A DNA stretch of 64,000 nucleotides from an uncultured virus (IMG/VR IMGVR_UViG_3300036823_000386) (lineage: Duplodnaviria > Heunggongvirae > Uroviricota > Caudoviricetes). The stretch is taken from IMG/VR virus record IMGVR_UViG_3300036823_000386. One strand, written 5' to 3'. The stretch's first letter is position 1, and each line of letters opens with the position of its first letter. The translations under genes were made by a program, and so were the position numbers. Positions 14,126-27,569 of the stretch are shown piece after piece. The notes below the pieces were generated by a model. It was not told the origin of the DNA. It worked only from the letters and a program-made list of their open reading frames with translations, and searched no databases.

Positions 14126-16159
14126 ATGAAAAATAAATTTTTGGTTGGGTGGTGCGTGCTTTTTATGGCGGCGACCGCGCTGGCAAATCCATTCGGAACA
14201 CTCTCGATTGACTCGAGTGGAAACCTGATCAATCGGACATTCTTCCCGCAAAACCTTTGGCCGACGAATTGCGTTCCCAACGGAGCGGTTTACACGAGCG
14301 GCGCTTATACACCAACGCTGGTGACGGGCGCACTTTATTATTTTCAGAGTTCGCCGACTGACCAAGGCAGCCTGCACAATGGCAGCGCGGTTTATCCTTT
14401 CCCGACGAACCTGACGTTTGTGGCGGCGGCGGGGGCGTTCATCCATACGACCCAGTCGGTCACGCTGGTGTCGTCCACGCTTACGGGACAGCTTTGGACG
14501 AATGTGGGATTGTTTAACGGCGATTTTGTCGGGCGGTTCATTGGCGACGGTTCGGGCATGACGAACTCGGCGGCGCTAATGGGCGGGGACGCAACGGGGA
14601 TGTCCACGAGCATGGTATTGAACAATTCCTCAACGGCGCGGGGGCATCTGGGTTTGGGTACGATCGCGACACTGAACACCAACGGCGCGCTGGCGTTCAG
14701 CAATCTGCTCAACCAAATCGCGGGCATCTTCAACGGCAATGGCGGGGGGATCACGAATTTGCAGACGAGCCAGTTGGAGGGGAAAATTGCATCGGCGAAC
14801 CTGGACAGCAATCTGGTGTTCGTGATCGATTCACGGGGGAATTATAATTTCACCACCTTTGGCGGGTTGAATATCCAGGGGGACGGAACCATCGGCGGAG
14901 ACGCGAGTTCATTGAATATTCTGAACGGCAGCTTTTTCACGGTGGATCCGATCAGTTCGATGACGGTGCTCGGCCTGGCGGAATTTTACGCGCCGTTCGC
15001 GATGTATCTGACGGTGTCCAATGGCGCGCTGTTCAAGGGCGGGGTGACCAATAATTCCATTTTGGGATTTGTGGGCAACGGCGGCAACCTGACGAACGTC
15101 ACCGCGACCAACTTAAGTGGCACACTGGAAAATGTGACGGGGCATGATTTGAATTTGAGCGCGACGATATTAAACGGCGGATTGACATTGACGCTGGATG
15201 GCAATCCGAGTTCCAAAGCGGCTTTCAAATTGACGGGTCCGGCGGTGAACACTTTTTTCGATAACAACGGAAGTTTGCAGTTCTTCGACGGCGGGGGCGT
15301 GAATATTCAAGGCACGGGAAATTTTACGGGAAATGGCTCGGGCATCACGAACTTGAACGTGAATATGGCGTTCCCGATCGGGAGCATCATTCCGTCGCAA
15401 TTTTTGGGAAGCGGCGGAACGAGCACATCGTTTCTCCGCAAGGATGGCGTGTATGCGACGCTGTCGGGCTCGGGAACCGTGACGAGCCTGGGGATCCAAG
15501 GCGATGGCGCGTTGATTGCAACAGCGCCGACCGGATCGCCGGTGACGACGGCGGGGACGATCATTCTGCAAGCGGCGAATTCGCCGGCCAACAAGGTCGT
15601 AGCAGGACCCACCAGCGGCGGCCCTGCGCCGCTGACGCAACGGTTTTTGGTGGATGCGGATTTGGCGGCGACGGATGCGGCGTTAGTTATCGCCGCGCAG
15701 ACCTGGGCCGGCGCGCAACAGTTCACGAATAATAACAACAGCTTCGTGGGGAATGGAGCGGGCGTGACGAATATCTCGGCGGGCGGGGGATCGTTCGGGA
15801 CAGTTACGGCGCACGACAGCGTGACGAATTTCTGGCTGGATTTTGGCGGGGCGGGAAATCCGAGTGCGATCGCTTATCCTAAAATCTTTGCGAGCGGCGA
15901 TATCAACTTCACCACGCCGACGAATGGGCCGGGAGCGGTCGCGTATAAAATTTTGCCGAATGGAGCGAACCGGAATATTTCGTGGCCAACCAATTTCCTC
16001 ACGCTGAACACGAATGGCCTGACGCTGGCGGGAACGAATTGGGTGATGACGCTGACCAACGGCATTCGCGTGGCGTGGTGCACCTTCGTGGCGGATGGGC
16101 CGAATGAAACGGGTTTGCTGGCGACGAACGTGACGGCGTTGTGTGTGATCTCTCCCTGA
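14126..16159 (+). CDS. Fibre-like protein with predicted Sec signal peptide
   Basis: MKNKFLVGWCVLFMAATALA|N; repeated GNGxGxTN; fibre motifs GTVTS...GSPVTTAGTI and ANKVVAGPTSG. Confidence 0.65.
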   Translation: MKNKFLVGWCVLFMAATALANPFGTLSIDSSGNLINRTFFPQNLWPTNCVPNGAVYTSGAYTPTLVTGALYYFQSSPTDQGSLHNGSAVYPFPTNLTFVAAAGAFIHTTQSVTLVSSTLTGQLWTNVGLFNGDFVGRFIGDGSGMTNSAALMGGDATGMSTSMVLNNSSTARGHLGLGTIATLNTNGALAFSNLLNQIAGIFNGNGGGITNLQTSQLEGKIASANLDSNLVFVIDSRGNYNFTTFGGLNIQGDGTIGGDASSLNILNGSFFTVDPISSMTVLGLAEFYAPFAMYLTVSNGALFKGGVTNNSILGFVGNGGNLTNVTATNLSGTLENVTGHDLNLSATILNGGLTLTLDGNPSSKAAFKLTGPAVNTFFDNNGSLQFFDGGGVNIQGTGNFTGNGSGITNLNVNMAFPIGSIIPSQFLGSGGTSTSFLRKDGVYATLSGSGTVTSLGIQGDGALIATAPTGSPVTTAGTIILQAANSPANKVVAGPTSGGPAPLTQRFLVDADLAATDAALVIAAQTWAGAQQFTNNNNSFVGNGAGVTNISAGGGSFGTVTAHDSVTNFWLDFGGAGNPSAIAYPKIFASGDINFTTPTNGPGAVAYKILPNGANRNISWPTNFLTLNTNGLTLAGTNWVMTLTNGIRVAWCTFVADGPNETGLLATNVTALCVISP

Positions 16160-16161
16160 TT

Positions 16162-16992
16162 ATGAAAATAATTATTAGCGTTTTAATGGCAGTCGTGATG
16201 GCGGCGTTGCAAGTCGGCGCACAGGCGCTGACGCCACGAGATCCAGCTTTTTTGATTTGGGGAAGCGGCGCGAATGGCGGGAGTGTTTATGCCCCGGGCG
16301 CGTTCATCATATACGGTCAGCCCAATGTCTCGGCGGCGGTATTTCAAAATCTGTTGGCCTATTACACTTTTGATAACAGCGGAAACTTCGGCGCTGACTC
16401 GGTCGGGAGTTTAAGCCTGACCAAAAATGGAAGTCCAGGTGCAACGACCGGAGTGGTGAATGGGGCGATCAGCCTGCTTAATAATTCTTCAGATTCATTA
16501 TCGCACGCCGATGTGGCGGGTTTGCGGATCGACGGCAGCACGTCATTCACAATCGCGGGTTGGTTCTTAGCCAGCAGTTCCGGTTTTGACGAAATCCTGA
16601 TAGCTAAAAATACAGCGAACTATCAGCTTAAACTAAATGCCAGCGCCATGAGCACGCTGACTTTTACCCTTTTCAACACGACATCCGGTAGCACCTCGGT
16701 CACTTCAACGGCGTCCGTGCACGCTTCGCAATGGACTTTTTTTGCGATGTGGTACGACAAGCCCGGCAATACAATCAATATTTACGTTGCTGACCCTTTC
16801 AATAACTCAATGAATTCCGCAGCGTTTACCGGCACGCCGGGAGCGTCCGCGAACTCGACGTTTGTGGCAGGGTTTAGTTCCGGTCTTTCGGGCATTCCGG
16901 TCGCTTTCGACGCAATGGGAATTTGGGACCGGGTGGTGACGAGCGCGGAATTAGCCTACCTCTATAACAACGGGAGCGGGCGGCAATTATGA
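16162..16992 (+). CDS. LamG/concanavalin A-like domain protein with predicted signal peptide
   Basis: MKIIISVLMAVVMAALQVGAQA; LLAYYTFD...SFTIAGWF...DAMGIWDRVVTSAELAYLYN. Confidence 0.75.
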   Translation: MKIIISVLMAVVMAALQVGAQALTPRDPAFLIWGSGANGGSVYAPGAFIIYGQPNVSAAVFQNLLAYYTFDNSGNFGADSVGSLSLTKNGSPGATTGVVNGAISLLNNSSDSLSHADVAGLRIDGSTSFTIAGWFLASSSGFDEILIAKNTANYQLKLNASAMSTLTFTLFNTTSGSTSVTSTASVHASQWTFFAMWYDKPGNTINIYVADPFNNSMNSAAFTGTPGASANSTFVAGFSSGLSGIPVAFDAMGIWDRVVTSAELAYLYNNGSGRQL

Positions 16993-17843
16993 AAAGCTTG
17001 CATGGGATGACATTGGAAAATGTGAAGCTCCATTTGTGCGGGAGTAATGGCATCGAGATCGCCGGGAGAATTTTGCGGCCGGATGAAACGAAAAGCTATG
17101 TCGAGTTCACGTTGAGCCATGCGTTTCCGGTAGTGACCTGCGACAACACCTGCATTCATCCGCAGGTCGTGGCGAATAGTTACCGCACGATGCAGGACAA
17201 GGTTTTTGATCTGGCCCATATGTTGCGGGCGTACAATCCGAAGGACAATCCCCGCGATTATATTTTGGGCTGCGTGGTGGCGGTGGAATTTCCCGAGACA
17301 CCGGACGGTGGCTGGAAAGTCCAGGGGGACAAGTCGCGCGCACCAGGCATCCGCGGGGCGGCGGTGATGTGGAAAAAAGCGGAGAATGTCGAAACCATTC
17401 TCAATCAATATTTCAATGGGCAGGTTGATTGGACGGTTTCGATGGAGCAGTTGTTCGACCTGGGCAATTCGGCGTTCATCGTCAAAGCGACAGGCGCAAA
17501 TGAGGATTGGGAAGAATGGGTAAAAAAAACTCCCGATGATTTGAAAACGCTGGGGTGGACGTACGTGCCGTTTGTGGAAGCGCCCAACGATTTGCTGGCC
17601 TGCTATGACAAAAAGACCAGGGCCGTGAAGCAATATCGGGGCTGCGAAACGCTCCTGATGTTCGGCGGCCTCAACGGTGACGTTCATTACAACGGAGTGG
17701 GGCTCACGCCGATGGGAAAAGAAAATGAGGCGCAAGTGGTTCAGATGCTGGCGAGCGAGAAGTTGATCAAGGTCAACGGCGAGCTGATGCCGGACATCAT
17801 TGGATTGTTGAAACAGACGGCGGAAATCCTGGAATTATCATGA
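16989..17843 (+). CDS. Probable prohead protease
   Basis: Position between portal and scaffold; DLAH...ILGCV...WTVSME...YNGVGL resembles HK97-fold head proteases. Confidence 0.55.
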   Translation: MKSLHGMTLENVKLHLCGSNGIEIAGRILRPDETKSYVEFTLSHAFPVVTCDNTCIHPQVVANSYRTMQDKVFDLAHMLRAYNPKDNPRDYILGCVVAVEFPETPDGGWKVQGDKSRAPGIRGAAVMWKKAENVETILNQYFNGQVDWTVSMEQLFDLGNSAFIVKATGANEDWEEWVKKTPDDLKTLGWTYVPFVEAPNDLLACYDKKTRAVKQYRGCETLLMFGGLNGDVHYNGVGLTPMGKENEAQVVQMLASEKLIKVNGELMPDIIGLLKQTAEILELS

Positions 17844-18553: not shown

Positions 18554-18581
18554 TGCGGACTTAGGAATTGTGAAGTGAGAA

Positions 18582-18610
18582 GCGCCGGAATGATCCGGCG
18601 CATTTTTTTT
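18582..18610 (+). terminator. Rho-independent terminator
   Basis: GCGCCGGA-ATGA-TCCGGCGC stem followed by A and 8 T. Confidence 0.75.
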
Positions 18611-18616
18611 GTACGC

Positions 18617-18634
18617 GTGAAAAATATTTTTCAC
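18617..18634. promoter_or_regulatory. Perfect 18-bp palindrome (operator-like)
   Basis: GTGAAAAATATTTTTCAC is its own reverse complement. Confidence 0.45.
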
Positions 18635-18641
18635 AAAACGA

Positions 18642-18666
18642 ATAAATTCGTTGGGACGGGGGCGGA
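18642..18666 (+). promoter_or_regulatory. 25-bp repeat copy 2 (putative late promoter/activator site)
   Basis: Identical to 11620..11644; between a terminator and the scaffold gene. Confidence 0.55.
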
Positions 18667-18730
18667 CGGACGGAGGATGCGGTCGCTTGAGTGCGCGAGA
18701 CGCAAACAAAAACGAAATAAAATTCACGAT

Positions 18731-19579
18731 ATGAAAATTCCTACCGACGCGAAAAACACCCAGATCATTCGGGAATGCCTGAACGAAATGCGCCAGCACC
18801 TTTGCAGCGCGGCGGATCTGCTGGAGGAACCTTGGAAATCCCAGTTCAACGATTTGAAGGGGCTGTACGACAAAACGATCAGCGGCCTGCCCGCGACGGA
18901 TGCGGTTCCGGCGGCCCTCGAAGCCAATCAATTGCTCCAGGGATTGTTTTCCTGCATGTCCCACGGCAGCGCACTCATGACGTTGATGGCCTCGAAAATC
19001 AATAACCACAAAGGCGAGATGACGCAAGCAGTCGCGAGCGCGGTGGATGGGAAGATTGCCGAACGCATCGCTTCGGGTGATTTGATCGCGAAAGACACGC
19101 TGCCGGCGGTCGTCGCCAAAGCGGTCACGGAAAAAACCGCCGCGGGTGAACTCGTGGACAAGGGAACGGTGCAACAGCTTTGCAGTGCCGCCAAGGACCA
19201 GGGGATCGAGTTGGGGAAAGAAACCATTCGCACCGAAATCACGGCGAAGGAACAAACCACGGCCGCGATCGCGAAGCGCAAGACGATCCTCCAAACGTGC
19301 AGCCTGCCGCTGCCCGAGGCCGCGCTGGAAAGCGTGCTCGGAGGAACGGACGAAGCGTTTGAAGCGGCGAAGCAAACCGCCGAGGGACGCATCCAAGCGT
19401 TGTGCAGCAAAGGCGTCGCCATCACGGCGGCGAGCAAGATCGGAGCGAAAGTCTGGCTGCCGAAGGAGCAGTGGGAAGTCTTCGAGAGCCTCGCGCTGGA
19501 AACGCTGTCGGGTGGCGATCCGTTAGTCGTGCCGCCGACGCAACGCACCGGCGAGAAGCCTCCCGTGATGATGGTGTAA
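18731..19579 (+). CDS. Probable capsid scaffold protein
   Basis: Ala/Glu/Lys-rich helical protein upstream of decoration and capsid genes; ATG 18731. Confidence 0.55.
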   Translation: MKIPTDAKNTQIIRECLNEMRQHLCSAADLLEEPWKSQFNDLKGLYDKTISGLPATDAVPAALEANQLLQGLFSCMSHGSALMTLMASKINNHKGEMTQAVASAVDGKIAERIASGDLIAKDTLPAVVAKAVTEKTAAGELVDKGTVQQLCSAAKDQGIELGKETIRTEITAKEQTTAAIAKRKTILQTCSLPLPEAALESVLGGTDEAFEAAKQTAEGRIQALCSKGVAITAASKIGAKVWLPKEQWEVFESLALETLSGGDPLVVPPTQRTGEKPPVMMV

Positions 19580-19616
19580 ACCCCGACAACAACCGCAACT
19601 TTTAAAATAAAAAATT

Positions 19617-20096
19617 ATGAAACTACCTTTTGAAATCCGCCGCCGGTCGCCGATGCCTTTGATCACGCTGGTGACGCCCACCGGCACCGGTTATCCGATC
19701 GGGACGGCGATGCAGGAAAGCGCCACCGCCGGAACCGCCGAACTGGCCGACGGCACGAAAGTGTTTGCGGGGTTCATGACGCGCCAATCCATCGTCGGCG
19801 GGCCGACGCTGGGCGATGATATTTTTCCCGGGCGTTTGCAACTAGGGGTTGCCGCCGGTGATCCGGACAGCTTTGAGCGCGGGGAGGAAATCGAGTGCGA
19901 GGGCGCGTCTTATGTGGACGCGGGTATTACCGGTTCCACGGCGCTGAAGACGCCGCTTTCGTTTGCCGCTGGAAAATTCTGCGTGGCGGGTTCCGGTCAA
20001 TATGCGCAATTCGAATTGGTGGAACTGCCCGCGCCGGTGACAGCCGGAAACGTGCGCATCCGCGTGGTGCCGCTGGCTGCCTTTATCAAACCGTAA
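19617..20096 (+). CDS. Probable head decoration/cement protein
   Basis: 159 aa, Gly/Ala-rich beta protein directly upstream of capsid gene. Confidence 0.55.
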   Translation: MKLPFEIRRRSPMPLITLVTPTGTGYPIGTAMQESATAGTAELADGTKVFAGFMTRQSIVGGPTLGDDIFPGRLQLGVAAGDPDSFERGEEIECEGASYVDAGITGSTALKTPLSFAAGKFCVAGSGQYAQFELVELPAPVTAGNVRIRVVPLAAFIKP

Positions 20097-20146
20097 GTGT
20101 GAACGGATAACGATCCTCGAAAACCATAACTTTAAAAAATACCAAA

Positions 20147-21415
20147 ATGAAAAATCCGACCTCGGTCCACACCATGAGCCTTGAGCAGTTGCAGGGCAAC
20201 TTCAAGAAGTTCGCGCGCCGTTCGCTTTCGCTATGCGGTGTCATGCCAGATGGCAAGCCGCTTGGCGTCGCCGTGAAACAATTCTTCGACGATCTGCTGG
20301 CCAGCACCACGGACGCGGAGAAAATCCGTCAGCGAAATGAATTCATGGCGCGGGCCGAAACCGACGCCAAGGCGCGCCAACAACTATGCTCGATCCGCGT
20401 GGAGACCGTCAGCAACTACGTACTCGCGACGGTCAATATCCTGAGCATGTTCTTCGAGATCGTCAATTTGGCTGACGGTGAAACCTACTATTTCCAGAAC
20501 ACGACCGAACAGGAAATCGGCGTCAGTTACATGGGTCCCGACGGCGGCATGCAACAAAAGACCGTCACCAAAGATGATGACGAAATACGTATTCCCATGA
20601 AAATCCTCACCACGGATGAAGTCCGTTACAAGGTTTGGGACGTTTACCGCGGTTCGATTGTGGATGCGGCCTTAAAAGTTTTGCGGATGGCCTATGATTT
20701 GCAGAACAAGATTGATCAGCTCGCCTATCAGTTGCTCACCGATCCTAACAAGGGAGCATTCGGCCAGTTCATTTATCCAGGTTCAACTGCGGGCGGCGGT
20801 GCTGGTAGCGGTACAGTTCCCCCCGTGAAGACCAGTACGGGCGCGGTTTCGCAGACGGGTGTCAATTACACGTTCCTACCGAACAGCCGCATCAATATTG
20901 CGAACTTGCCGAAGACCAACGATATCGTTCTCTCCACCAACACGGCGAATTCGGTGATGCGTTACGAGGTATTTCAGAAAGCCATCAAGTATAAGGACCA
21001 GTGGCAAGGTTGCTGGCCGGATGGTGATCCTCAACTGAGCGGAGAAGTACTCATTCCTGGCGCGGATGCAAGCGATATTGCGACTGAAATTGTGCCTTCG
21101 GGTTCAACCAACAACCGCGTGGCCGATGAGCTTTTGGAAAATGGTTACACCACGGTTGATTATCTTGGACAGCGTTTCGTGTTGAAGGCGGATAATACGA
21201 TCACTCCAGGAAGCTGCTATTTCGGCATGACTAAAAAAGCGGGTCGCGCCTTGTTCAAACCGAGTGGTGACCGCAATTACCGCCGTGGACCGGAGGATGA
21301 TTACGAACTCGCTGCCAAGAATGAGGAGGTCCAGTGGATGAACAAGCCGTTGGGACTCTATATGCCCACGACCGAACGCATCTACGCGTTGCGGGTGACT
21401 TATAAAACTCTCTAA
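20147..21415 (+). CDS. Probable major capsid protein
   Basis: 422 aa after scaffold/decoration; followed by strong hairpin; assigned by synteny and size. Confidence 0.65.
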   Translation: MKNPTSVHTMSLEQLQGNFKKFARRSLSLCGVMPDGKPLGVAVKQFFDDLLASTTDAEKIRQRNEFMARAETDAKARQQLCSIRVETVSNYVLATVNILSMFFEIVNLADGETYYFQNTTEQEIGVSYMGPDGGMQQKTVTKDDDEIRIPMKILTTDEVRYKVWDVYRGSIVDAALKVLRMAYDLQNKIDQLAYQLLTDPNKGAFGQFIYPGSTAGGGAGSGTVPPVKTSTGAVSQTGVNYTFLPNSRINIANLPKTNDIVLSTNTANSVMRYEVFQKAIKYKDQWQGCWPDGDPQLSGEVLIPGADASDIATEIVPSGSTNNRVADELLENGYTTVDYLGQRFVLKADNTITPGSCYFGMTKKAGRALFKPSGDRNYRRGPEDDYELAAKNEEVQWMNKPLGLYMPTTERIYALRVTYKTL

Positions 21416-21444: not shown

Positions 21445-21481
21445 AATTCTCCTCCGAATTTGAAAAACTAAAAACTTTTTT

Positions 21482-22546
21482 ATGAAATATACACTTCCAG
21501 CGGTGCAGACGGCGGATCTGGATACGATCCAATCGCCGTATTTCGGCGGTGAGTTCGCCGTCTATATGACCAATGTGCCGGGTGTGCGCATCGGCCAGGT
21601 GGATCTGACGGCGACGGCGCAGGGGACTTATACCGCGGACCCGGCGACGACCATCCAGGCGGCAGGCAGCGATCTGCAAATGGTGGCGATCACGCCGATC
21701 AACTCGGCGGCGCAGACGGTGGTCACATTGTCGGGAACGGACACGAGCGAACCGCCAGTGCCAATCACGTTGACGGCGACGTTCGCCCCGCCGGCGCGGT
21801 CGTTGAACCAGACGTTTAATTTTGCGCGCAGTTTCGCGGTGGACATGGTGGTGGGGCCAGTGAGTGTGCCGGCAAGCACTTTCCGGTCGCGCGCTTCCAA
21901 TGTCGCGACGCTGACGATCCCGGCGCACAAATTGTTGACGGGCATGAAGGTCAATGTGACCGGCGTGGGTGGCACGGGTTATAACGAGAATGGTGTGACC
22001 GTGACGGTCCTCACACCGAACACCTTCACTTATCCGAGTACGGGCGCGGATGAAGCCACGGCGGCGGACACGGGCGCGATGATCGCGGTCATCAATAACG
22101 GTTTGGCGGGAACCATCACCGGTTTGATCAGTGTTACAGGCGGCTCGGCGAATATGAGCTTCCGCGTTTACCAGCTTCCGGTGCTTGCCGATTACGTGCT
22201 GATCTCGCCGACGATGGAGATTGATTTCAACACGCGGTCGCGCGTGGCCAAGGGCATCAACAGCGGCATGGAAACGGACGCGTTCATCAAGAGCGGCATG
22301 TCTCAGCCGGGCGAGCTTTCCATCGGCAGCAATCTGGTGGACTTCGAGGCGGGCATGGCGCGTTTCGACGGCCAGAAAACCACGTGCATGCTGATCGGCT
22401 TGAAGGACGGCCAGCTTCAGGGAGACCGGATCGTGTTCCAGCAATACCACGGCACGGTGAAACCGAAACTGCCGACGGGCGATGGTGAAGCCACCATTGA
22501 GGCGGCGGGCAAGTTCGCGGACCTGCTGATATTCTTCGCGCCGTAA
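21482..22546 (+). CDS. Probable major tail tube protein with inserted beta domain
   Basis: C-terminal tube-like strands (PGELSI...ATIEAAGKF); insert RASNVATLTIPAHKLLTGMKVNVTG...NTFTY. Confidence 0.5.
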   Translation: MKYTLPAVQTADLDTIQSPYFGGEFAVYMTNVPGVRIGQVDLTATAQGTYTADPATTIQAAGSDLQMVAITPINSAAQTVVTLSGTDTSEPPVPITLTATFAPPARSLNQTFNFARSFAVDMVVGPVSVPASTFRSRASNVATLTIPAHKLLTGMKVNVTGVGGTGYNENGVTVTVLTPNTFTYPSTGADEATAADTGAMIAVINNGLAGTITGLISVTGGSANMSFRVYQLPVLADYVLISPTMEIDFNTRSRVAKGINSGMETDAFIKSGMSQPGELSIGSNLVDFEAGMARFDGQKTTCMLIGLKDGQLQGDRIVFQQYHGTVKPKLPTGDGEATIEAAGKFADLLIFFAP

Positions 22547-22675
22547 ACCCAAACAGTTTGAAGCCCTCCGCCCATTGGGTGTGACGGGCTTCGAGGCGCC
22601 CAGGGTCGAACACAAACCACGGTCCGGGCGCTTTTGAGAAATTCAAAAAACCAAAATTCAAAAGTTAAAATAAAT

Positions 22676-23233
22676 ATGAAATTCAAAAATAAAAATTCCG
22701 GTGGGTTCACGTTGGTGGAAATTCTTTTGACGATCGCAATCATCGCTGTCCTCGCGCCCATCGCAATCCCGCGAGTGGCAAAAGCGGCGGACATCGTGGT
22801 GAGCGGCCGGGCATTGGTGGAAAGCGCCAACTCGGGTGTGGTCACCAACGGCGGCAGCCTGGGCGGACCGTTCTCCAATTCGACGGTGACCAGCACGGCG
22901 AGTTCGCCAATCCCGGTGATTCCGGGGGTGGACATTGCGCTTTATATCACGCAGGTCGCCGCGGGTTCGGGCACGGCACCAGTGACTTACGGTTTCAACT
23001 TTGAAGGTTTAACCAACACGGCGGCGTTCCGTGGATCGGGCACGAATTTCTGGACGACCACGCTGCCTTATACCGCGACGCTGGCCTTGAACGGCACGAC
23101 GCAGGTGACGGGCTGGTTTGTCATCAACCATACCAACCTCATTGGCGTGGACCAGATCCGCTACGACTCCTGCTCGACCACGCAAGCCAACAATATTTTG
23201 GACGTGGTGCGTTGGAAATACGTCACCCCGTAA
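22676..23233 (+). CDS. Protein with type IV prepilin N-terminal cleavage/methylation motif
   Basis: MKFKNKNSGG|FTLVEILLTIAIIAVLAPIAIP: G-1, F+1, E+5 and hydrophobic helix. Confidence 0.8.
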   Translation: MKFKNKNSGGFTLVEILLTIAIIAVLAPIAIPRVAKAADIVVSGRALVESANSGVVTNGGSLGGPFSNSTVTSTASSPIPVIPGVDIALYITQVAAGSGTAPVTYGFNFEGLTNTAAFRGSGTNFWTTTLPYTATLALNGTTQVTGWFVINHTNLIGVDQIRYDSCSTTQANNILDVVRWKYVTP

Positions 23234-23237
23234 GCCA

Positions 23238-23307: not shown

Positions 23308-23337
23308 AGGTTAGTTGGTTGAATAAAAATATTTTTT

Positions 23338-23760
23338 ATGGAGCGAGTTAAAAAACATTGGCGGGTGGTCGCGGCGTTGACGGCGTTGTTGGCGCTCATC
23401 GCGTTTCCGGTTTTGGCGGACACGTTCGCCCGGATCGTGGACAACGCGACGGCGGTGAGCGCGCCGCAAATCGTGACGGTTACCAGCACGGCGGTATCCA
23501 CAGTTTTCTCGCTGAATCCTTCGCTCGGAGTGGGCCGGCCGATTTTGCGGACGGTTCAGAACACGGGGACGCAGCCGGTCCTTTATTTGATCAACAGCAC
23601 GAACGTGAGCACGACGAGTTATCACGGCGTGCTGGCGGCGGGCCAGGCGAATCGCGACGGGCTGGGCACGGTGCTGGACCTGAGCAAGGTGCCGTTCCCG
23701 GTGAGTTTCATCACGGAGAGCGGTTCGACCACGATTGCAGTGGTGGAAGAGATCCAATGA
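23338..23760 (+). CDS. Small signal-peptide protein resembling head spike-base/decoration domains
   Basis: KKHWRVVAALTALLALIAFPVLA|D; RTVQNTGTQPVLY...VSTTSYHGVLAAG. Confidence 0.55.
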   Translation: MERVKKHWRVVAALTALLALIAFPVLADTFARIVDNATAVSAPQIVTVTSTAVSTVFSLNPSLGVGRPILRTVQNTGTQPVLYLINSTNVSTTSYHGVLAAGQANRDGLGTVLDLSKVPFPVSFITESGSTTIAVVEEIQ

Positions 23761-23764
23761 TGCC

Positions 23765-23790
23765 AATGCGGAGTGCGGAGTGCGGAATGG
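23765..23790 (+). repeat. Heptamer tandem repeat (GCGGAGT/GCGGAAT)n
   Basis: Related arrays at 35838, 61136, 62285, 28119, 6635. Confidence 0.7.
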
Positions 23791-23813
23791 GGAGAATGAA
23801 GTCGCGGAGTTGA

Positions 23814-26678
23814 ATGAAAAAGAATTTTAACATGCGGGTGGGGCTGGTGCTGGCGCTTTTGAGCGCCAGTTGCTCTTTGGGCCTGGGGCAAACCCAGGAC
23901 GTGCGCCGCAATGGCGGTGGGGGCGGCGGGAGTGGTGGCGCGCCGTCGGGCTCGGCCGGTGGCGATTTGGGAAGCACGTATCCGAATCCTAGCGTCAGCC
24001 AAGTCGGGGGCGTGACGGCGGCGAATGTGGCGAGTGGGGCGACGGCGGCGAATAATGCCACGACCAACGCCACTGGTGGGACAATAGTGAAGCGCGATGC
24101 CGCTGGTGGGACGACCATCAGCACCGCGCGATTGGGCGGCGTGACGTTCAGTTCGGACAATGGCGGCGGCATCAATTTTGTCTGCACCAACGACACGGCA
24201 GCGGGCTACACGGCGGACGGAGTAGTGAGCGCGCTCAATAAGAATCCCCGGGGAAGCGGTTCGGGATGGGGGGCGCAATATGTCGGCAATGAATTGGTGA
24301 ACCAATATGGCGAGACGGGAACTTTGCTGGACACCGACAGCCAGGGACGTCCGCTCTATCTCTACGACCAATTTGGAATTGATATGCTGTTCGTGGGCGA
24401 GGATGCGCCCCGGGCGGTCATGAATGGCAAGGCGTTGATCGTGTTCGATGCGCCGCATGCGTTTGTGATTGGAGCGAACGGGGTGGACGGCGGAGCCAAC
24501 GGAGTCCAGGGATTGTTGTATTACTCGAACAAGGTGACTTACTTTTCGCAGTTCCAGGATGACACGAACAAGATCAATCCCTCGGACGTTGGGTATCTCT
24601 ACTCGTTGAAAATTGAGCACAACCCGAGCCATCCGAATGTGACGACGGGGAGCAATTTGTTCGTGGGCGGATTTTTATACAACGGCACGACGACAGCGCA
24701 GCCGCTGACGGACGTGGCGGGGTTGCGCGGGGATGCGTTTGACACTTCCATAAATCTGAATGTGCAAAACGCGGTGTTGGTGGGCACGAATTTTTCAGCG
24801 CGGCAACTGGGCGTGGCGGCTTTTAATACGGGGAGCAGCTTCGGGTTGGGCGCGAACGGCGGGAATAATTCCGGCGTGTATTATTTTGGCGGCAATCCGC
24901 TGCTGCACTTTGACGGGACCTCGGCGATCCGGGTGGAAGTGGATGAGCCGATTCAGCCGGTGACCGCCAATACCAGCAGCGTGGGAGGGCCTACGCTTCC
25001 TTTTGGTCATGCGTATTTCAAGAGTAATTCGATTTCGGGGAACTTGACCTTGTCTTATGCGGGTGCGGGTATCCTGGAGACCGATGGCGGCGGCAATGTG
25101 ACGTCGGTGGCTACGGTCCCCAACGCGAATCTTCCTTCGGCGGCGATGGTGGTGAAGACCGCGAACTACACCATCCAGGCCACGGACCACGTGGTCATCC
25201 TGACGAACACCAGCGGCACGATCAAAGCAACGCTCCCGGCCGCCGCCACCGTGGCGCATCAGCAATTTTATCTGGTCAACAGCGGAGCGGCGACGGTGAT
25301 TGTCACCAACGGCAACGGGACGGACCTGTTTAATTATCAAACGAAATCTCTGACGAACACGGTCCCGATGTCGTTCATTCCCTTATACAGTGACGGCACA
25401 AACTTCTTTGCCGCCGGGTATTCCAATGGTATCCCGATAATGCCATATACCAATCTCGACGCTTTGTATGTAGAAGATCTGCATGTGGCCAATGGCATCC
25501 TGCCGGGCAGCGGCGGCACGGGTTGGACGAATGTTTTTCCGGGGACAATATTCGTTTGGAACGGCACGAACCTACCTGATCCGGTGGCGCTGAGCAGCAG
25601 CTTTTCACTTTCGGGAAGTCCGGGTGACACGAACCGGGTGCTGTCCATTGCGCCGGTATTCAGCATAGACACGAATATCCTGGTTACCAATTCTGTTTTA
25701 ACAGACCTGCTCGATTTTAATTTGCCCACGAATGGACAGTTTGTCGCGACTTACAATCTGACCATACAGGGGGAAAGTAATAATCGGGCATCATTCATAA
25801 ACGGGTCAGTAGTCTGCGCTAGCACCCCGGCTGGGGCCATGATCATTTCGACCAACAATCAGGTAACCAATCTCAACAAGTTTTGCTTTTGGAGCAACTT
25901 GTGGATACCGAGCGGAAACGACCTGCGGTTTAAGGTGACGGGAATGACGAACCAGTATACCTGGATTCACGTCAAGGGCGATGGTTATTTCGATACCAAC
26001 GGCGCGCCGCCGCCGCCCACGCCGCCGCCAGCAGGGCCGACCCCGGATAACGCGTGGTGGAAATTCGCCGAAGGGGCCGGGCACTCTACCAGCGCAGACC
26101 AGACCAGTGGCGGGCATGCGATTACTCTGGTAAACTCCCCGACCTGGGGAACGGATAACGCCGGATTTGCCAACTTTGGGGACGTTATCCTGGATGGAAC
26201 CAGCCAATACCTTTCCTACTCGGGCAGCGTTCTGCCAGGTAATGGTTCGCCGATCAATTTCAGCATTGTTGTTTGGGTGAAGTTTTCCGGCTCGCCAGCG
26301 GGCACAGTGGTTGGCTCTGATGCCTTCGGCGGCCTTAGGCTGGACGTTTCGAGCGGCGGGAACATTACCTTCTCCACCGACGCTACTGGTTTTAGCGCGG
26401 CCAGCACTGGCGGAACTTTAGCCAACGATAACCACTGGCACATGATTGGATTTACTGAAGATTCAATCGGTGACTACGTAATCTATATTGATGGCGTTAA
26501 TTTGACCCATGCGCAGCACAATTCTGGCTGGCTTGGGGGAGGTCACTATATTGGCGCGGATTTGGATGGAGGCGCGAATAACTTTCTCAATGCCGCTGTC
26601 GCGGACGTGGCGGTTTACACCACCACGCTTACCGATGCGAATATGACCACGCTTTATGCCGCAAAACCTCGTCACTAA
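23814..26678 (+). CDS. Large fibre/adhesin-like protein with predicted signal peptide and C-terminal LamG domain
   Basis: MKKNFNMRVGLVLALLSASCSLGLG; AGGDLGSTYPNP; KTANYT...TLPAAA; Pro linker; WWKFAEG...FSIVVWVK...WHMIG...ADVAVY. Confidence 0.7.
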   Translation: MKKNFNMRVGLVLALLSASCSLGLGQTQDVRRNGGGGGGSGGAPSGSAGGDLGSTYPNPSVSQVGGVTAANVASGATAANNATTNATGGTIVKRDAAGGTTISTARLGGVTFSSDNGGGINFVCTNDTAAGYTADGVVSALNKNPRGSGSGWGAQYVGNELVNQYGETGTLLDTDSQGRPLYLYDQFGIDMLFVGEDAPRAVMNGKALIVFDAPHAFVIGANGVDGGANGVQGLLYYSNKVTYFSQFQDDTNKINPSDVGYLYSLKIEHNPSHPNVTTGSNLFVGGFLYNGTTTAQPLTDVAGLRGDAFDTSINLNVQNAVLVGTNFSARQLGVAAFNTGSSFGLGANGGNNSGVYYFGGNPLLHFDGTSAIRVEVDEPIQPVTANTSSVGGPTLPFGHAYFKSNSISGNLTLSYAGAGILETDGGGNVTSVATVPNANLPSAAMVVKTANYTIQATDHVVILTNTSGTIKATLPAAATVAHQQFYLVNSGAATVIVTNGNGTDLFNYQTKSLTNTVPMSFIPLYSDGTNFFAAGYSNGIPIMPYTNLDALYVEDLHVANGILPGSGGTGWTNVFPGTIFVWNGTNLPDPVALSSSFSLSGSPGDTNRVLSIAPVFSIDTNILVTNSVLTDLLDFNLPTNGQFVATYNLTIQGESNNRASFINGSVVCASTPAGAMIISTNNQVTNLNKFCFWSNLWIPSGNDLRFKVTGMTNQYTWIHVKGDGYFDTNGAPPPPTPPPAGPTPDNAWWKFAEGAGHSTSADQTSGGHAITLVNSPTWGTDNAGFANFGDVILDGTSQYLSYSGSVLPGNGSPINFSIVVWVKFSGSPAGTVVGSDAFGGLRLDVSSGGNITFSTDATGFSAASTGGTLANDNHWHMIGFTEDSIGDYVIYIDGVNLTHAQHNSGWLGGGHYIGADLDGGANNFLNAAVADVAVYTTTLTDANMTTLYAAKPRH

Positions 26679-27569
26679 ATGAAGTATCTAATCATTTTCT
26701 TCATCGCCGTGGCCCGGCTCGCTTGCGCCGACGAGGTTGCGGATGTCGCACTCATCTCTACGGTCTGGACTAACGGTGCAAATATCACCGACGCCGCTTA
26801 CTACAATTCAATTACGGTTCATTCTTCCGCTGGCGCAGGAACGTGGATCACGAACGGATTCGGCCATACGAATTCCTTTGCGGCGACAGTAACCAATCTC
26901 TATGGGCGGGTACTCAACATAGGAGGCCAGCGATATCCAGATCTCACAAACAACATCGCCATTGCACTATCAATGACGAACAACAATAACTGGATGCAGT
27001 ATAATTTCACCACCCCTCAGTCAGAAGTTCTCATGGTGATGATGGTACAATTTGGCGCCCACGTGACCGGCGGCTCGGGCGTATTCGATATCTTCAACAT
27101 CAATGCCGGGTCTAAGGATGTTATTTCTCAATACTACGAAGCGCAGAATATTGGCGGAACGGATTATCCGACTATTTACGCTCACAACGCTGCCACAACA
27201 GAATTCGATCAGCCTATCTTCAATTTTACGCTCTCGACCAAGTGGTATATCCTGACGCTCTTCAAAAGCGTTTCTCGCGACGTCGCCATAATCACACTGA
27301 TTGATGCGGACACGGGTGTTGTATTCGGGAGCAGCTCCGTTACGCCGGCGCTGCAAAGCGAGATGTCCCCATTTGTGTCTATTGGCCGATTTGACAACCA
27401 CGCTCCGACGGATGAACAGGGGGGGCCGGAAACGAGCGGACCAGCCCCGGCGAACACCGTCATCAAAGACTGGCATGTGATCGTGGGCGCCGCGGCTGAC
27501 GCGCCCTATCACTGGCGCGATCAAGTGATTTGGAATGTCAACCACATGATCGCAGGGAATATGCGGTAA
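26679..27569 (+). CDS. Secreted beta-sandwich (lectin-like) protein
   Basis: MKYLIIFFIAVARLACA|D signal peptide; N/T-rich. Confidence 0.55.
   Translation: MKYLIIFFIAVARLACADEVADVALISTVWTNGANITDAAYYNSITVHSSAGAGTWITNGFGHTNSFAATVTNLYGRVLNIGGQRYPDLTNNIAIALSMTNNNNWMQYNFTTPQSEVLMVMMVQFGAHVTGGSGVFDIFNINAGSKDVISQYYEAQNIGGTDYPTIYAHNAATTEFDQPIFNFTLSTKWYILTLFKSVSRDVAIITLIDADTGVVFGSSSVTPALQSEMSPFVSIGRFDNHAPTDEQGGPETSGPAPANTVIKDWHVIVGAAADAPYHWRDQVIWNVNHMIAGNMR

What the first reader, a model, noticed from the sequence alone, without database searches (positions are those of the whole stretch)
14126..27569. Virion fibre/decoration-type genes carrying export signals: a candidate phage-encoded secreted fibre system
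Seen: six genes embedded among head and tail genes start with export signals (14126, 16162, 23338, 23814, 26679 Sec-like; 22676 prepilin-like). Their bodies contain phage fibre motifs (GTVTS..GSPVTTAGTI, ANKVVAGPTSG, AGGDLGSTYPNP, KTANYT..TLPAAA), LamG tips and a spike-base-like domain. They are TN-rich; I count roughly 20 N-x-S/T sequons by hand in 14126..16159. Established: tailed-phage virions assemble in the cytoplasm and their fibres normally lack signal peptides. Inference: these proteins are exported, possibly folded or glycosylated in the periplasm, and then either join the virion at lysis or build a phage-encoded surface appendage on the host.
Basis: partly seen in the sequence, partly recalled or inferred. 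Interest (0 to 1): 0.85.

Follow-up and report, generated by a model that had tools for sequence, protein, structure and literature searches.

The report
Phage fibre genes with export signals
A prophage in a soil bacterium puts bacterial secretion signals on its fibre-like and lectin-like proteins and on two small conserved partner proteins encoded among its head, lysis-type and tail genes, so these parts most likely fold outside the cytoplasm where tailed-phage particles are built; whether they later join the particle is untested.

Summary
The core observation holds. The six ORFs at 14126, 16162, 22676, 23338, 23814 and 26679 start with Sec-type leaders, or a prepilin-type leader at 22676. 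No start codon avoids the hydrophobic segment without leaving a large gap. They lie between an HK97-fold capsid gene (20147-21415) and a tape-measure gene (35887-40959).

Export is conserved. The small jellyroll protein 23338 has 11 relatives, and all begin with a variable hydrophobic N-terminus. The relative of the prepilin-type protein 22676 carries a Sec-type leader instead. In two other uncultured phages the same order recurs after the head genes: exported small protein, then exported fibre or spike.

Periplasmic N-glycosylation and the "spike-base" domain are not supported.

The fate of the proteins is open. My best reading (0.4) is periplasmic maturation and attachment to particles at lysis. 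Its support is the cultured Cellulophaga phage phi18:3, where three leader-bearing proteins are annotated as structural from MS/MS. The main rival (0.3) is exported late proteins that act on the envelope and never join the virion.

This scan has already noted at least 14 similar cases on other DNA. Six literature searches found no paper describing the phenomenon. I rate it a new variant of a known kind, interest about 0.6.

The parts
13074..14123 (+). Signal-less collagen-like/tail-fibre-like protein (349 aa), immediately upstream of the first exported fibre
   Evidence: No leader found. PHROG tail-fibre and collagen-like hits, e.g. phrog_22212 at 3.7e-12 and phrog_5073 tail fibre at 7e-7. Sequon excess of 12 against 4.8 despite having no leader.
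14126..16159 (+). Exported fibre-like protein (677 aa), Sec-type leader ...ATALA|NP
   Evidence: Heuristic score 35.0. No upstream in-frame start, and a 2-nt gap to 13074. Only itself in the word-based search of 5.8 billion proteins. The nearest Atlas clusters are viral tail-fibre and head-fibre clusters, score 0.90, a lead only.
16162..16992 (+). Exported LamG lectin-like protein (276 aa), Sec-type leader
   Evidence: Laminin_G_3 PF13385 at 4.5e-13, 50 bits against a cut-off of 27.6. Heuristic score 42.1. The gene starts 2 nt after 14126 and overlaps the next head-module gene by 4 nt.
16989..17843 (+). Conserved head-module gene (284 aa, function unassigned), no leader
   Evidence: 51% identical to L005:173-1099. 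No Pfam or PHROG hit.
18575..19579 (+). Scaffold-like helical protein, conserved head-module gene
   Evidence: 47% identical to L005:3411-4262. The name rests only on composition and position, which is inference.
19617..20096 (+). Small conserved head-module protein (159 aa)
   Evidence: 58% identical to L005:4411-4914 and 42% to L006.
20147..21415 (+). Major capsid protein, HK97 fold
   Evidence: AF2 model with pLDDT 80.6. Foldseek PDB gives 356 hits at E<=1e-3; the top hits are phage capsids and HK97, at 1.3e-10 to 2.2e-9. The exhaustive search finds 203 cluster representatives.
21482..22546 (+). Conserved 354-aa protein after the capsid gene, no leader, function unassigned
   Evidence: 51% identical to L005:6273-7340.
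22676..23233 (+). Prepilin-type (class III) leader protein, 185 aa, with a beta-rich body
   Evidence: N_methyl PF07963 at 1.6e-6, above the cut-off. phrog_3433 'pilin' at 8.6e-7. The body is 38% identical over 78 aa to L005:7405-7926, which has a Sec-type leader. The host has a prepilin peptidase.
23338..23760 (+). Exported small single-jellyroll protein (140 aa), a conserved partner gene
   Evidence: Heuristic score 47.4. The family has 12 aligned members, all with hydrophobic N-termini. AF2 model with pLDDT 79.3: an N-terminal helix followed by an 8-strand sandwich. VIA-align best match is PM2 spike P1, Z 9.0. BFVD gives 37 uncharacterised phage proteins at E<=1e-3.
23814..26678 (+). Exported fibre-like protein (954 aa): leader, Gly-rich linker, fibre repeat, unknown middle part, ConA/LamG-like C-terminus
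   Evidence: Heuristic score 34.1. Residues 40-98 match fibre repeats in P0001 and P0004 at 63-73% identity. The C-terminus has a sub-threshold PF07953 hit. The start codon directly follows an in-frame stop.
26679..27569 (+). Exported LamG/ConA-like protein (296 aa)
   Evidence: Heuristic score 30.7. The ATG directly follows the stop of 23814. The Atlas points to Laminin_G_3 clusters by features (0.93-0.95) and by structure (TM 0.54-0.60), which is a lead only. Pfam finds nothing.
27577..27882 (+). Single-pass membrane protein with a charged helical tail (i-spanin- or holin-like by form only)
   Evidence: Hydrophobic windows at residues 13-36. No family hit.
27891..28271 (+). Small protein with two moderately hydrophobic stretches (possibly a membrane protein)
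   Evidence: Read from the sequence. No 19-residue window passed my threshold, so membrane insertion is uncertain.
28323..29003 (+). Lipobox protein (…LMLAAC|K)
   Evidence: Heuristic 'lipo' call, score 33.2.
29193..29555 (+). Small lipobox protein (…LLLSGC|F), o-spanin-like by form only
   Evidence: Heuristic 'lipo' call, score 42.7.
29560..30297 (+). Class-3 lipase/esterase, no leader
   Evidence: Lipase_3 PF01764 at 3.7e-11. phrog_21992 esterase/lipase at 3.4e-14.
35887..40959 (+). Tail tape-measure protein (marks the tail module)
   Evidence: PF10145 at 5.8e-24. phrog_4211 at 1.1e-28.

Best explanation
The element is a divergent siphovirus-type prophage. Its late operon holds an 'extracytoplasmic module' of two small conserved proteins and two fibre-plus-lectin pairs. 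The small proteins are a pilin-like protein (22676) and a single-jellyroll protein (23338). The pairs are 14126+16162 and 23814+26679. All six proteins carry export signals.

Proposed mechanism:
1. The six proteins are made together with the head proteins. This step is inferred from the tight gene packing.
2. They are translocated by Sec, or handled by the host prepilin peptidase in the case of 22676. The leaders are shown and conserved; cleavage and translocation are inferred.
3. They fold and oligomerise in the periplasm. Each fibre meets its lectin partner there, because both partners of each pair carry a leader.
4. They meet the cytoplasmically built, DNA-filled particles only when the adjoining membrane/lipoprotein/lipase block (27577-30297) opens the envelope. 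They then attach as side fibres or decoration. Steps 3 and 4 are inferred.
For: (a) Leaders are real and conserved.
- 8 of 34 phage ORFs are flagged, against a 1.1% chance rate on internal protein segments.
- In the 23338 family, 10 of 12 members get a Sec-like call: 6 at score >=30 and 4 at 23-27. The other 2 have short N-termini that are still hydrophobic. Pairwise identity is 23% over the leader and 54% over the mature part.
- The leader type is swapped between 22676 (prepilin) and its L005 homologue (Sec).

(b) The genes behave as core late genes.
- 23338 is 55% identical to its L005 homologue; the capsid protein is 53% identical.
- Gaps and overlaps of -4 to 2 nt tie 14126 and 16162 into the head operon.
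- GC3 lies within the phage range.
- Promoter-like and terminator-like sites do not exceed shuffled sequence: 5 against 9.6 +/- 3.3, and 22 against 24.8 +/- 5.9.

(c) The order recurs in other phages.
- In L005 and in the otherwise different phage L007, a leader-bearing small protein and then a leader-bearing fibre or spike follow the head genes. None of the head genes there has a leader.

(d) The bodies look like phage fibres.
- The repeats match fibre proteins.
- The Atlas neighbours of 14126 are viral fibre clusters.
- One LamG domain is solid.

(e) There is a precedent for virion association.
- In the cultured Cellulophaga phage phi18:3, gp085-087 are annotated 'structural protein, annotation based on experimental MS/MS proteomics analysis'. 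All three start with Sec-type leaders.
- In phi46:3, the five homologous or neighbouring leader-bearing genes are followed by membrane proteins and a glycosyl hydrolase. This is the same order as in this window.
- The first 102 residues of phi46:3 gp080 are 90-91% identical in phages whose remainder differs. That is the modular pattern of a conserved docking end.

(f) Only one large gene (41195-44095) follows the tape-measure gene. The usual place for receptor-binding fibres is therefore nearly empty.
Against: - There is no proteomic, expression or structural evidence for this phage.
- The heuristic is not a trained signal-peptide predictor.
- The fibre and lectin proteins (14126, 16162, 23814, 26679) have no full-length homologues, so their leaders could not be tested by conservation.
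- The phage also encodes signal-less candidates for host recognition (13074, 937-3933, 41195-44095), so it may not need the exported proteins on the particle.
- The Cellulophaga annotation may reflect proteins that co-purified with particles. I could not read the paper behind it.
- No endolysin was identified, so calling 27577-29555 a lysis block rests on protein form only.
- The share of leader-bearing ORFs is not above the host genome's own rate.
Confidence: 0.4

Rival explanations
1. The six are exported late accessory proteins that act on the cell envelope and never join the particle. They would be lectin or fibre proteins that bind envelope glycans from the periplasmic side or after release. 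Possible roles are masking receptors on lysing cells and debris, excluding superinfecting phages, or helping the adjoining membrane/lipoprotein/lipase block to open the envelope.
For: - They lie directly next to TM proteins, two lipobox proteins and a lipase. L005 and Cellulophaga phi46:3 show the same adjacency.
- There are up to three lectin-type domains.
- L007's third exported protein is weakly beta-helix-like, which is depolymerase-like (PF13229, 2.5e-3, below the cut-off).
- Signal-less fibre candidates exist for the virion itself.
- The pilin-like protein hits a PHROG that is filed as a moron 'pilin'.
- The large exported proteins differ completely between the window, L005 and L007.
Against: - Known receptor-masking or exclusion proteins such as T5 Llp and Cor are small (recalled from memory, not tested here). 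They are not 677-954-aa fibres with paired tips.
- No catalytic family was found in any of the six.
- Variable C-terminal parts are equally what receptor-binding fibres show.
- The MS/MS-based 'structural' annotation of leader-bearing proteins in phi18:3 points the other way.
Confidence: 0.3
2. This is a phage-borne surface-fibre system for the host, that is, lysogenic conversion. The exported fibres would be relatives in kind of cellular MAT-type fibres. They would be displayed on the lysogen, or on sibling cells after partial induction, as adhesins. The pilin-like and jellyroll proteins would serve as anchors.
For: - The host itself encodes a 3846-aa Sec-leader fibre that ends in a Peptidase_S74 chaperone domain (2.2e-17). 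It shares the shaft repeats of 23814 and 14126.
- Bdellovibrio MAT proteins combine a signal peptide, a conserved N-terminal domain and a phage-like trimeric fibre, and they are surface-located (PMC10769870, passages read).
- The host has a prepilin peptidase and five secretins, which could carry periplasmic proteins outward.
Against: - No separate promoter or terminator signal above chance was found.
- The composition is not foreign, except for a lower GC3 in the two LamG genes.
- The genes are translationally packed into head genes, which argues for late expression only.
- The jellyroll gene diverges in step with the capsid gene, unlike sporadic morons.
- No S74 domain and no similarity to the host fibre's N-terminal part was found in the phage proteins.
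Confidence: 0.12
3. The hydrophobic N-termini are not export signals. They could be uncleaved membrane anchors or assembly helices, or they could come from wrongly chosen starts. In that case the proteins would be ordinary cytoplasmically assembled fibres.
For: - No trained predictor was run.
- 26679 has an Arg inside its hydrophobic run, and its score of 30.7 sits at the threshold.
- 23814 could instead be read as a poor lipobox (LSASC).
- AF2 models the 23338 N-terminus simply as a helix.
Against: - Downstream starts past the hydrophobic run would leave about 90-300 nt of open frame untranslated in otherwise tightly packed genes, and upstream starts only lengthen the N-terminus.
- The chance rate of the pattern is 1.1%.
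- The leader is conserved as a feature in the 12 family members while its sequence drifts.
- The swap between prepilin-type and Sec-type leaders in homologues is hard to explain unless export itself is selected.
- None of the head, scaffold or tape-measure proteins shows the pattern, in the window, in L005 or in L007.
Confidence: 0.08

Closest known systems
Leader-bearing 'structural proteins' gp085-087 of Cellulophaga phage phi18:3 (GenBank KC821620) and gp079-083 of phi46:3 (KC821622), Pachyviridae
   Same: - They are large fibre- or spike-like late proteins of a tailed phage that start with classical Sec-type leaders.
- They are encoded consecutively, directly upstream of membrane proteins and a glycosyl hydrolase.
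- The N-terminal end is conserved while the rest is swapped between phages.
- The record annotates them as structural from MS/MS.
   Different: - There is no sequence similarity to the window's proteins.
- They belong to a Bacteroidota host and a different phage family.
- There is no pilin-type leader and no jellyroll partner gene.
- I saw only the record's annotation. The paper behind it (recalled as Holmfeldt et al. 2013, PNAS) was not held.
Bdellovibrio bacteriovorus MAT (mosaic adhesive trimer) fibres, and this host's own S74 fibre (G000 C12:187898-199627)
   Same: - The architecture is a signal peptide, a phage-tail-fibre-like shaft and a variable tip (PMC10769870, passages).
- Residues 40-98 of 23814 match a Bdellovibrio 'beta strand repeat-containing protein' at 63% identity over 59 aa.
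- The same stretch matches the host fibre at 57% over 54 aa.
- The host fibre has a Sec leader and a Peptidase_S74 domain.
   Different: - MAT proteins are chromosomal cell-surface adhesins of a predator, not genes inside a phage head/tail operon.
- The phage proteins have no S74 domain.
- No similarity to the conserved N-terminal domain was detected.
Filamentous phage (Ff) coat proteins pIII and pVIII (recalled, not tested here)
   Same: They are virion proteins made with Sec-type leaders. They are inserted or exported before they join the particle.
   Different: - Ff particles assemble at and through the membrane without lysis.
- The window instead has an HK97-fold capsid and a tape-measure protein. 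It is therefore a tailed phage, and its particle is built in the cytoplasm.
Exported non-virion proteins of tailed phages: T5 Llp, lambda Bor and Lom, spanins, SAR or signal-peptide endolysins (recalled; a signal-peptide endolysin is described in PMC8951688, passages)
   Same: They are phage-encoded lipoproteins or leader-bearing proteins that act in the envelope. Some are encoded among late genes. The window's 28323 and 29193 fit this class by form.
   Different: These proteins are small, or they are enzymes. None is a 677-954-aa fibre with lectin tips, and none forms a conserved small-protein-plus-fibre cassette.
Streptococcus mitis phage SM1 PblA/PblB (recalled, not tested here)
   Same: They are tail-fibre-type phage proteins that also serve on the bacterial surface.
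   Different: As far as I recall, they have no leaders and reach the surface through phage lysis.

Membership tests
Sec-type (signal peptidase I) signal peptide | Basic n-region, an uncharged hydrophobic h-region of about 8-18 residues, and small residues at -3/-1 | tested here: met
   A crude heuristic gives these scores: 14126 35.0, 16162 42.1, 23338 47.4, 23814 34.1, 26679 30.7. The false-positive rate on internal segments is 36/3341. No trained predictor such as SignalP was available.
Sec-type (signal peptidase I) signal peptide | The leader is kept in homologues while its sequence drifts | tested here: met
   This was testable only for 23338. Ten of 12 members are flagged, and the other 2 have short N-termini. 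Pairwise identity is 23% over the leader and 54% over the mature part. It could not be tested for 14126, 16162, 23814 or 26679, because they have no homologues.
Sec-type (signal peptidase I) signal peptide | Actual translocation and cleavage | not testable with these tools
   This needs reporter fusions or N-terminal peptide mapping.
Type IV pilin-like (prepilin) proteins | N-terminal methylation motif: a short basic leader, Gly at -1, a hydrophobic +1 residue, Glu at +5, then a hydrophobic helix | tested here: met
   22676 reads MKFKNKNSGG|FTLVEILLTIAIIAVL. PF07963 scores 27.9 bits against a cut-off of 21.2 (E 1.6e-6). The host has a Peptidase_A24 gene.
Type IV pilin-like (prepilin) proteins | Pilin alpha-beta globular fold and incorporation into a pilus or pseudopilus | not tested
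   Pfam finds nothing on the body. The closest homologue (L005:7405-7926) has a Sec-type leader and no pilin helix. The body is therefore not tied to pilus assembly.
Laminin_G_3 / ConA-like lectin domain (PF13385) | Profile match above Pfam's gathering score | tested here: met
   For 16162-16992: 50 bits against 27.6, E 4.5e-13.
Laminin_G_3 / ConA-like lectin domain (PF13385) | The same match for the 23814 C-terminus and for 26679 | tested here: inconclusive
   The 23814 C-terminus gets only PF07953, a ConA-like clan member, at 19.8 bits against a cut-off of 23.8. For 26679 Pfam finds nothing. The Atlas suggests LamG clusters for it.
Tailed-phage structural module (Caudoviricetes) | HK97-fold major capsid protein | tested here: met
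   356 PDB matches at E<=1e-3, including HK97 1ohg_A at 2.2e-9.
Tailed-phage structural module (Caudoviricetes) | Tape-measure protein | tested here: met
   PF10145 at 5.8e-24 and phrog_4211 at 1.1e-28.
Tailed-phage structural module (Caudoviricetes) | Recognisable terminase and portal | tested here: inconclusive
   Pfam and PHROGs find nothing at E<=0.01 for 7721-9586 or 11667-13061. Their roles are guessed from size and position only.
Bdellovibrio-type MAT fibres | Signal peptide followed by a conserved beta-rich N-terminal domain of about 130 aa | tested here: inconclusive
   The leader is present. BLAST found no similarity between the phage proteins' N-terminal parts and the host S74 fibre or P0004. 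No MAT N-domain profile was available.
Bdellovibrio-type MAT fibres | An S74 chaperone tip or a characterised non-S74 tip | tested here: not met
   Pfam finds no Peptidase_S74 in 14126 or 23814. The host fibre has it at 2.2e-17.
Gram-negative lysis cassette (holin, endolysin, spanins) | Small membrane proteins, an outer-membrane lipoprotein and a peptidoglycan hydrolase | tested here: inconclusive
   A TM protein (27577), a possible membrane protein (27891) and two lipobox proteins are present. No endolysin family was found anywhere in the element.
Periplasmic N-glycosylation (PglB-type) | An oligosaccharyltransferase (STT3 family) in the host, and a sequon excess specific to the exported proteins | tested here: not met
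   PF02516 was not found in the 96.2%-complete genome. The control search rang only in four archaea, so there was no bacterial positive control. The signal-less 13074 shows the same sequon excess. The 14126 protein has only 3 D/E-x-N-x-S/T sites.
Moron (independently expressed prophage accessory gene) | Own promoter and terminator, deviating composition, sporadic presence | tested here: not met
   Promoter-like and terminator-like sites do not exceed shuffles, although the sigma-70 consensus may not fit this host. GC3 lies within the phage range, except for 16162 (0.585) and 26679 (0.616). 22676 and 23338 are conserved with the head genes.

The most novel reading that the evidence does not exclude
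A tailed phage builds its particle in two compartments. The head and tail form in the cytoplasm. The host-recognition fibres, their lectin tips and a small jellyroll adaptor are exported by Sec or as a prepilin and assembled in the periplasm. They dock onto particles only at lysis. The conserved jellyroll protein would be the docking adaptor. It would hold the fibre by the fibre's first mature residues, the Q-x-Q-x-[VI]-R-R stretch and Gly-rich linker seen in both the window and L007.
Probability: 0.25. Interest if true: 0.85.

Novelty: new variant of a known kind. Interest (0 to 1): 0.6.

Why it matters
Textbook assembly of tailed phages is wholly cytoplasmic. If the exported fibres prove to be virion parts, several things follow:
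- Host-range determinants would mature in the periplasm, with its own folding machinery.
- Particle completion would be coupled to lysis.
- Fibre genes could not be judged or engineered without their leaders.

If they are not virion parts, phages would carry a widespread, undescribed class of exported fibre and lectin proteins that act on the envelope.

Either way, annotation pipelines that call such genes 'tail fibre' miss the leader.

This window adds three points to the earlier cases of this scan:
- A small exported partner family is conserved with the head genes.
- Homologues swap between a prepilin-type and a Sec-type leader, which argues that export itself is under selection.
- The host encodes its own exported, S74-capped fibre with the same shaft repeats.

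Tried and rejected
**Relatives**
- Single-protein scans of viral contigs with the capsid protein and with 23814 found nothing.
- Alignments A1 and A2 were too diverse for the locus finder.
- A3 found nothing in viral contigs. It found three loci in metagenome contigs.
- Genome contigs with P0008 and with A4 found nothing.
- tblastn against 50,697 phage records found nothing for the capsid protein, 23338 or 21482.
- Whole-genome searches found the capsid protein in 0 of 60 relatives and 0 of 400 sampled genomes of the phylum.
- A4 gave only two weak hits (E about 1e-4) inside very long ORFs among 400 genomes of the order. I did not follow them up.
- The rest of the 65.9-kb contig behind L005 could not be fetched.

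**Sequence and fold searches**
- PDB sequence searches found nothing useful for the capsid protein, 14126 or 23814.
- Foldseek against the PDB with the jellyroll model gave no hit at E<=1e-3.
- The VIA-align top hit, PM2 spike P1 at Z 9.0, is only just above the usual best Z of 7-8. It is followed by cupins, Ena pilins and PirA, so I read it as 'single jellyroll' and nothing more.

**Complex prediction**
- Complex prediction (jellyroll with the fibre N-terminus) was not available, and nothing was folded.

**Expression**
- No RNA holder was listed; the four holders are soil-metagenome DNA runs.
- Laying contigs of three of those runs showed only the same sequence at low depth.

**Ideas rejected or left unsettled**
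- Glycosylation is rejected.
- The moron reading is not supported.
- The fibre and lectin proteins are not paralogues of one another.
- Gln at +1: 26% of 381 host Sec-like ORFs have small-x-small|Q, and 2 of the 5 phage Sec leaders do. This is too weak to use.
- The T9SS sorting-domain search, meant to place the host, was uninformative because its control rang nowhere.

**Literature**
- I ran six full-text searches.
- I read passages of PMC3556154, PMC12014285, PMC4642752, PMC5723332 and PMC8951688.
- None describes leader-bearing tail fibres of tailed phages.
- PMC4642752 reports 0 signal peptides among the 52 CDS of verrucophage P8625.
- I saw listings and passages only, so a paper may have been missed.

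Full report
**1. What is there**

The window is G000:C27:36547-100546, minus strand, from a 5.1-Mb, 41-contig, 55% GC genome. The DNA occurs in soil metagenomes. From upstream of position 1 to about 44095, all long ORFs run on the + strand and are tightly packed.

Few of them match known families.
- A tape-measure protein lies at 35887-40959 (PF10145, 5.8e-24).
- An SNF2 helicase lies at 9890-11611.
- A class-3 lipase lies at 29560-30297.
- A Laminin_G_3 domain lies in 16162-16992 (4.5e-13).
- A prepilin N-terminal methylation motif lies in 22676-23233 (1.6e-6).

The 422-aa protein at 20147-21415 had no family. An exhaustive HMMER search found 203 cluster representatives for it. An AlphaFold model built on 40 of them (pLDDT 80.6) matches HK97-type capsid proteins: 356 PDB hits at E<=1e-3, the best at 1.3e-10.

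This is a tailed-phage structural region inside a bacterial contig, with head genes upstream of the second gene cluster and tail genes downstream of it. I found no integrase, and I did not fix the ends of the element.

**2. The leaders**

No signal-peptide predictor was on hand. I wrote a crude test that asks for net positive charge, then 8-18 uncharged residues with mean hydropathy of at least 1.7, then small residues at -3/-1. It has separate patterns for lipoboxes and for prepilin motifs.

Of 34 phage ORFs, 8 pass at score >=30 or as prepilin. Two more ORFs score about 15, which I count as negative, and 24 score nothing.

Three rates put this in context.
- The same test passes 36 of 3341 internal protein segments of this genome (1.1%). 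Six to eight hits among 34 are therefore not chance (P 1.6e-6 to 2.6e-9).
- It passes 452 of 3643 genome ORFs of at least 120 aa (12.4%).
- The phage's share of exported proteins is thus about that of the host proteome (P 0.24 for six, 0.05 for eight). What is odd is which proteins carry leaders, not how many.

The starts are secure.
- Four of the six have no upstream in-frame start.
- Three begin 0-2 nt after the preceding stop codon.
- Starts lying beyond the hydrophobic run would leave about 90-300 nt of open frame untranslated in otherwise tightly packed genes.

**3. Are the leaders kept in relatives?**

The large proteins are orphans.
- 14126 found only itself among 5.8 billion proteins.
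- 23814 found five proteins that match only 3-6% of its length, namely the repeat GGDLxGxYPNPxV...VGGVTAANVASGA...IVKRDAxG.

The small ones can be tested.
- The metagenome scan gave L005 (with L004 as the same phage), whose capsid protein is 53% identical.
- Five head-module genes are shared at 47-58% identity.
- The next two genes are also shared: 22676 (38% over 78 aa; pairwise E 4e-6) and 23338 (55% over the mature part).
- The L005 copy of 22676 has a Sec-type leader (score 42.0) instead of the prepilin motif.
- 23338 has ten further relatives in the protein collection.

In the 12-row alignment of the 23338 family, 10 rows get a Sec-like call: six at score >=30 and four at 23-27. The other two rows have short N-termini that still begin hydrophobic. 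Pairwise identity is 23% across the leader and 54% across the mature part. A feature kept while its sequence drifts, and even exchanged for another export route, is what selection for export predicts.

**4. A recurring cassette**

| Locus | Genes after the capsid gene |
|---|---|
| L005 | leader-less 355-aa protein; three leader-bearing proteins (7405, 8030, 8437); two small membrane-type proteins; a possible lipoprotein; a leader-bearing protein ending ...IIWKF; then leader-less collagen-like and other fibre genes |
| L007 | five leader-less head-region ORFs (the first weakly portal-like; the 598-aa ORF not identified); a 23338 homologue with a leader (score 41.0); a 409-aa leader protein; a 508-aa leader protein (score 28.9) with a weak beta-helix signal |

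L007 is a 13.4-kb IMG/VR contig with a different head region, including a 598-aa ORF where a capsid gene might be expected.

The mature N-terminus of the 409-aa L007 protein reads QQQTIRRGGSGGGGGGG. The window's 23814 reads QTQDVRRNGGGGGGSGG at the same place. That resemblance is short and not significant by BLAST, so I treat it as a lead only.

None of the head-type proteins in the window, L005 or L007 has a leader.

**5. What the exported proteins look like**

- 23338 models as an N-terminal helix plus an eight-strand sandwich (pLDDT 79.3). It is a plain single jellyroll. The best solved match is the PM2 spike P1 (Z 9.0, rmsd 2.9 over 90 residues), followed by Ena pilins, PirA, STIV A223 and many cupins at Z about 7. 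Foldseek finds nothing in the PDB at E<=1e-3. It does find 37 uncharacterised Caudovirales proteins in BFVD, most 83-138 aa long.
Its Atlas neighbours are nearly all viral fibre clusters (score 0.90, a lead only).
- 16162 is a LamG lectin domain.
- 26679 and the C-terminus of 23814 are LamG/ConA-like only by weak evidence.
- A 'spike-base' domain was not supported.

The own genome holds no paralogues of any of them. The exception is the shaft repeats, which recur in one giant host protein. That protein has its own Sec leader, LVIVD repeats and a C-terminal Peptidase_S74 chaperone domain (2.2e-17). This is the architecture described for Bdellovibrio MAT surface fibres (PMC10769870, passages).

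**6. Glycosylation**

I count 22 N-x-S/T sequons in 14126, against 13.4 +/- 3.1 in shuffles (3 of 1000 shuffles reach 22). The leader-less 13074 shows 12 against 4.8 (1 of 1000), and 23814 shows 21 against 14.7 (41 of 1000). No STT3-family transferase was found in the genome (no bacterial positive control). The excess follows the NGS/NGT repeat motifs, not export.

**7. Neighbours**

The second exported cluster is followed directly by:
- a single-pass membrane protein with a charged helical tail (27577);
- a small, possibly membrane-bound protein (27891);
- two lipobox proteins (28323, 29193);
- the lipase.

This looks like a lysis block, but I found no endolysin, so the label is inference.

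The host has a prepilin peptidase and five secretins.

Sigma-70-type promoter and terminator patterns do not exceed shuffled sequence. GC3 of the six genes lies within the phage's range, with the two free LamG genes at the low end. Both points argue against independently expressed morons.

**8. Earlier notes of this scan, and a test of their lead**

Word searches returned 16 earlier notes, of which at least 14 describe leader-bearing fibre or late genes in phage structural modules of other genomes. So this is a recurring finding of the scan, not a first. None concerns this genome or look-alike DNA.

Several of those notes name Cellulophaga phages as the closest known case. I checked that myself.
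- In GenBank KC821620 (phi18:3), gp085-087 are annotated 'structural protein; annotation based on experimental MS/MS proteomics analysis'.
- All three begin with classical leaders...SFGYS|Q...GVSA|QT and ...GLNA|QT.
- In KC821622 (phi46:3), gp079-083 do the same.
- They are followed by small membrane proteins and a glycosyl hydrolase. This is the same order as in the window.
- The first 102 residues of phi46:3 gp080 are 90-91% identical in several phages whose remainder differs. That is the usual sign of a conserved docking end with swapped receptor-binding parts.

I could not read the paper behind the annotation.

**9. Reading**

- Shown: conserved export leaders on fibre-type, lectin-type and small partner proteins inside the late operon of a tailed phage.
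- Inferred: the proteins fold in the periplasm.
- Open: where they end up.

| Reading | Odds |
|---|---|
| Attachment to particles at lysis | 0.40 |
| Exported late proteins that act on the envelope without joining the particle | 0.30 |
| A host-surface fibre system | 0.12 |
| Leaders that are not export signals | 0.08 |
| Something else | the remainder |

**10. Novelty**

Six full-text searches and passages of six papers produced no description of leader-bearing fibres in tailed phages (see Tried and rejected). I saw listings and passages only. A database precedent exists in the Cellulophaga records, and the scan has many parallel cases. I therefore class this as a new variant of a known kind, not a new category.

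The points particular to this window are:
- the conserved exported jellyroll partner family;
- the swap between a prepilin-type and a Sec-type leader;
- a host with its own S74-capped exported fibre sharing the shaft repeats.

Noticed in passing
G000 C12:187898-199627 (locus L019:190-11727): The host encodes a 3846-aa protein with a Sec-type leader (…SQFASA|QS), 14 LVIVD repeats and long fibre-repeat stretches. It ends in a Peptidase_S74 'chaperone of endosialidase' domain (2.2e-17). This makes it a MAT-like exported fibre, and it shares shaft repeats with the phage proteins 14126 and 23814.
   Followed up: partly
L005:1706-3037 (minus strand): The related phage carries a full-length serpin gene (PF00079, 3.1e-91) with a leader-like N-terminus. 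It sits on the opposite strand between the head-module gene and the scaffold-like gene. The window has the Cys-rich ORF 17840-18553 at that place.
   Followed up: no
window 17840-18553: This is a 237-aa Cys-rich protein with CxxC-type pairs and no family hit, wedged between head-module genes with 4-nt overlaps. L005 lacks it.
   Followed up: no
window 20777-20881 (capsid protein residues about 211-245): The capsid protein has a Gly/Ser/Thr-rich insertion (YPGSTAGGGAGSGTVPPVKTSTGAVSQTG). P0009 shares it, but P0008 and the L005 copy do not. It is modelled with pLDDT below 50, so it may be a surface loop.
   Followed up: no
window 23814-23950 and L007:9118-9250: Behind their leaders, both 'third-gene' fibres start with Q-x-Q-x-[VI]-R-R and then a run of Gly. 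The L005 counterpart starts QEQHQ. This may be a docking peptide, or an N-terminal Gln that becomes pyroglutamate. The match is not significant by BLAST.
   Followed up: partly
window 19590-19616, 20120-20146, 21455-21481, 22650-22675, 23310-23337: The head genes 19617, 20147 and 21482 are preceded by A/T-rich leaders without a Shine-Dalgarno match. So are the two small exported genes 22676 and 23338. The large exported genes are instead coupled directly to the preceding stop codon.
   Followed up: no
window 23358-23813: A 151-aa Gly/Arg-rich ORF overlaps 23338-23760 in another frame. It looks like an off-frame artefact. The 23338 frame is the conserved one, with 11 relatives.
   Followed up: partly
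window 9890-11611 and 46520-49530 (minus strand): One SNF2 helicase gene sits between the terminase-sized and portal-sized genes. A second SNF2 helicase, an N6 DNA methylase and a sigma-70 region-4 protein lie on the opposite strand just beyond the last tail gene. The element may therefore extend past 44095. I found no integrase.
   Followed up: partly
window 29560-30297: A class-3 lipase without a leader follows the two lipobox proteins. It may be a lysis esterase like mycobacteriophage LysB (that comparison is recalled, not tested). No peptidoglycan hydrolase was found in the element.
   Followed up: no
L005:10638-11204: This is a leader-bearing 188-aa protein that ends ...AGIIWKF. A C-terminal aromatic residue is typical of small outer-membrane beta-barrels such as Lom or OmpX (recalled, not tested). 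It lies downstream of the exported block of the related phage.
   Followed up: no
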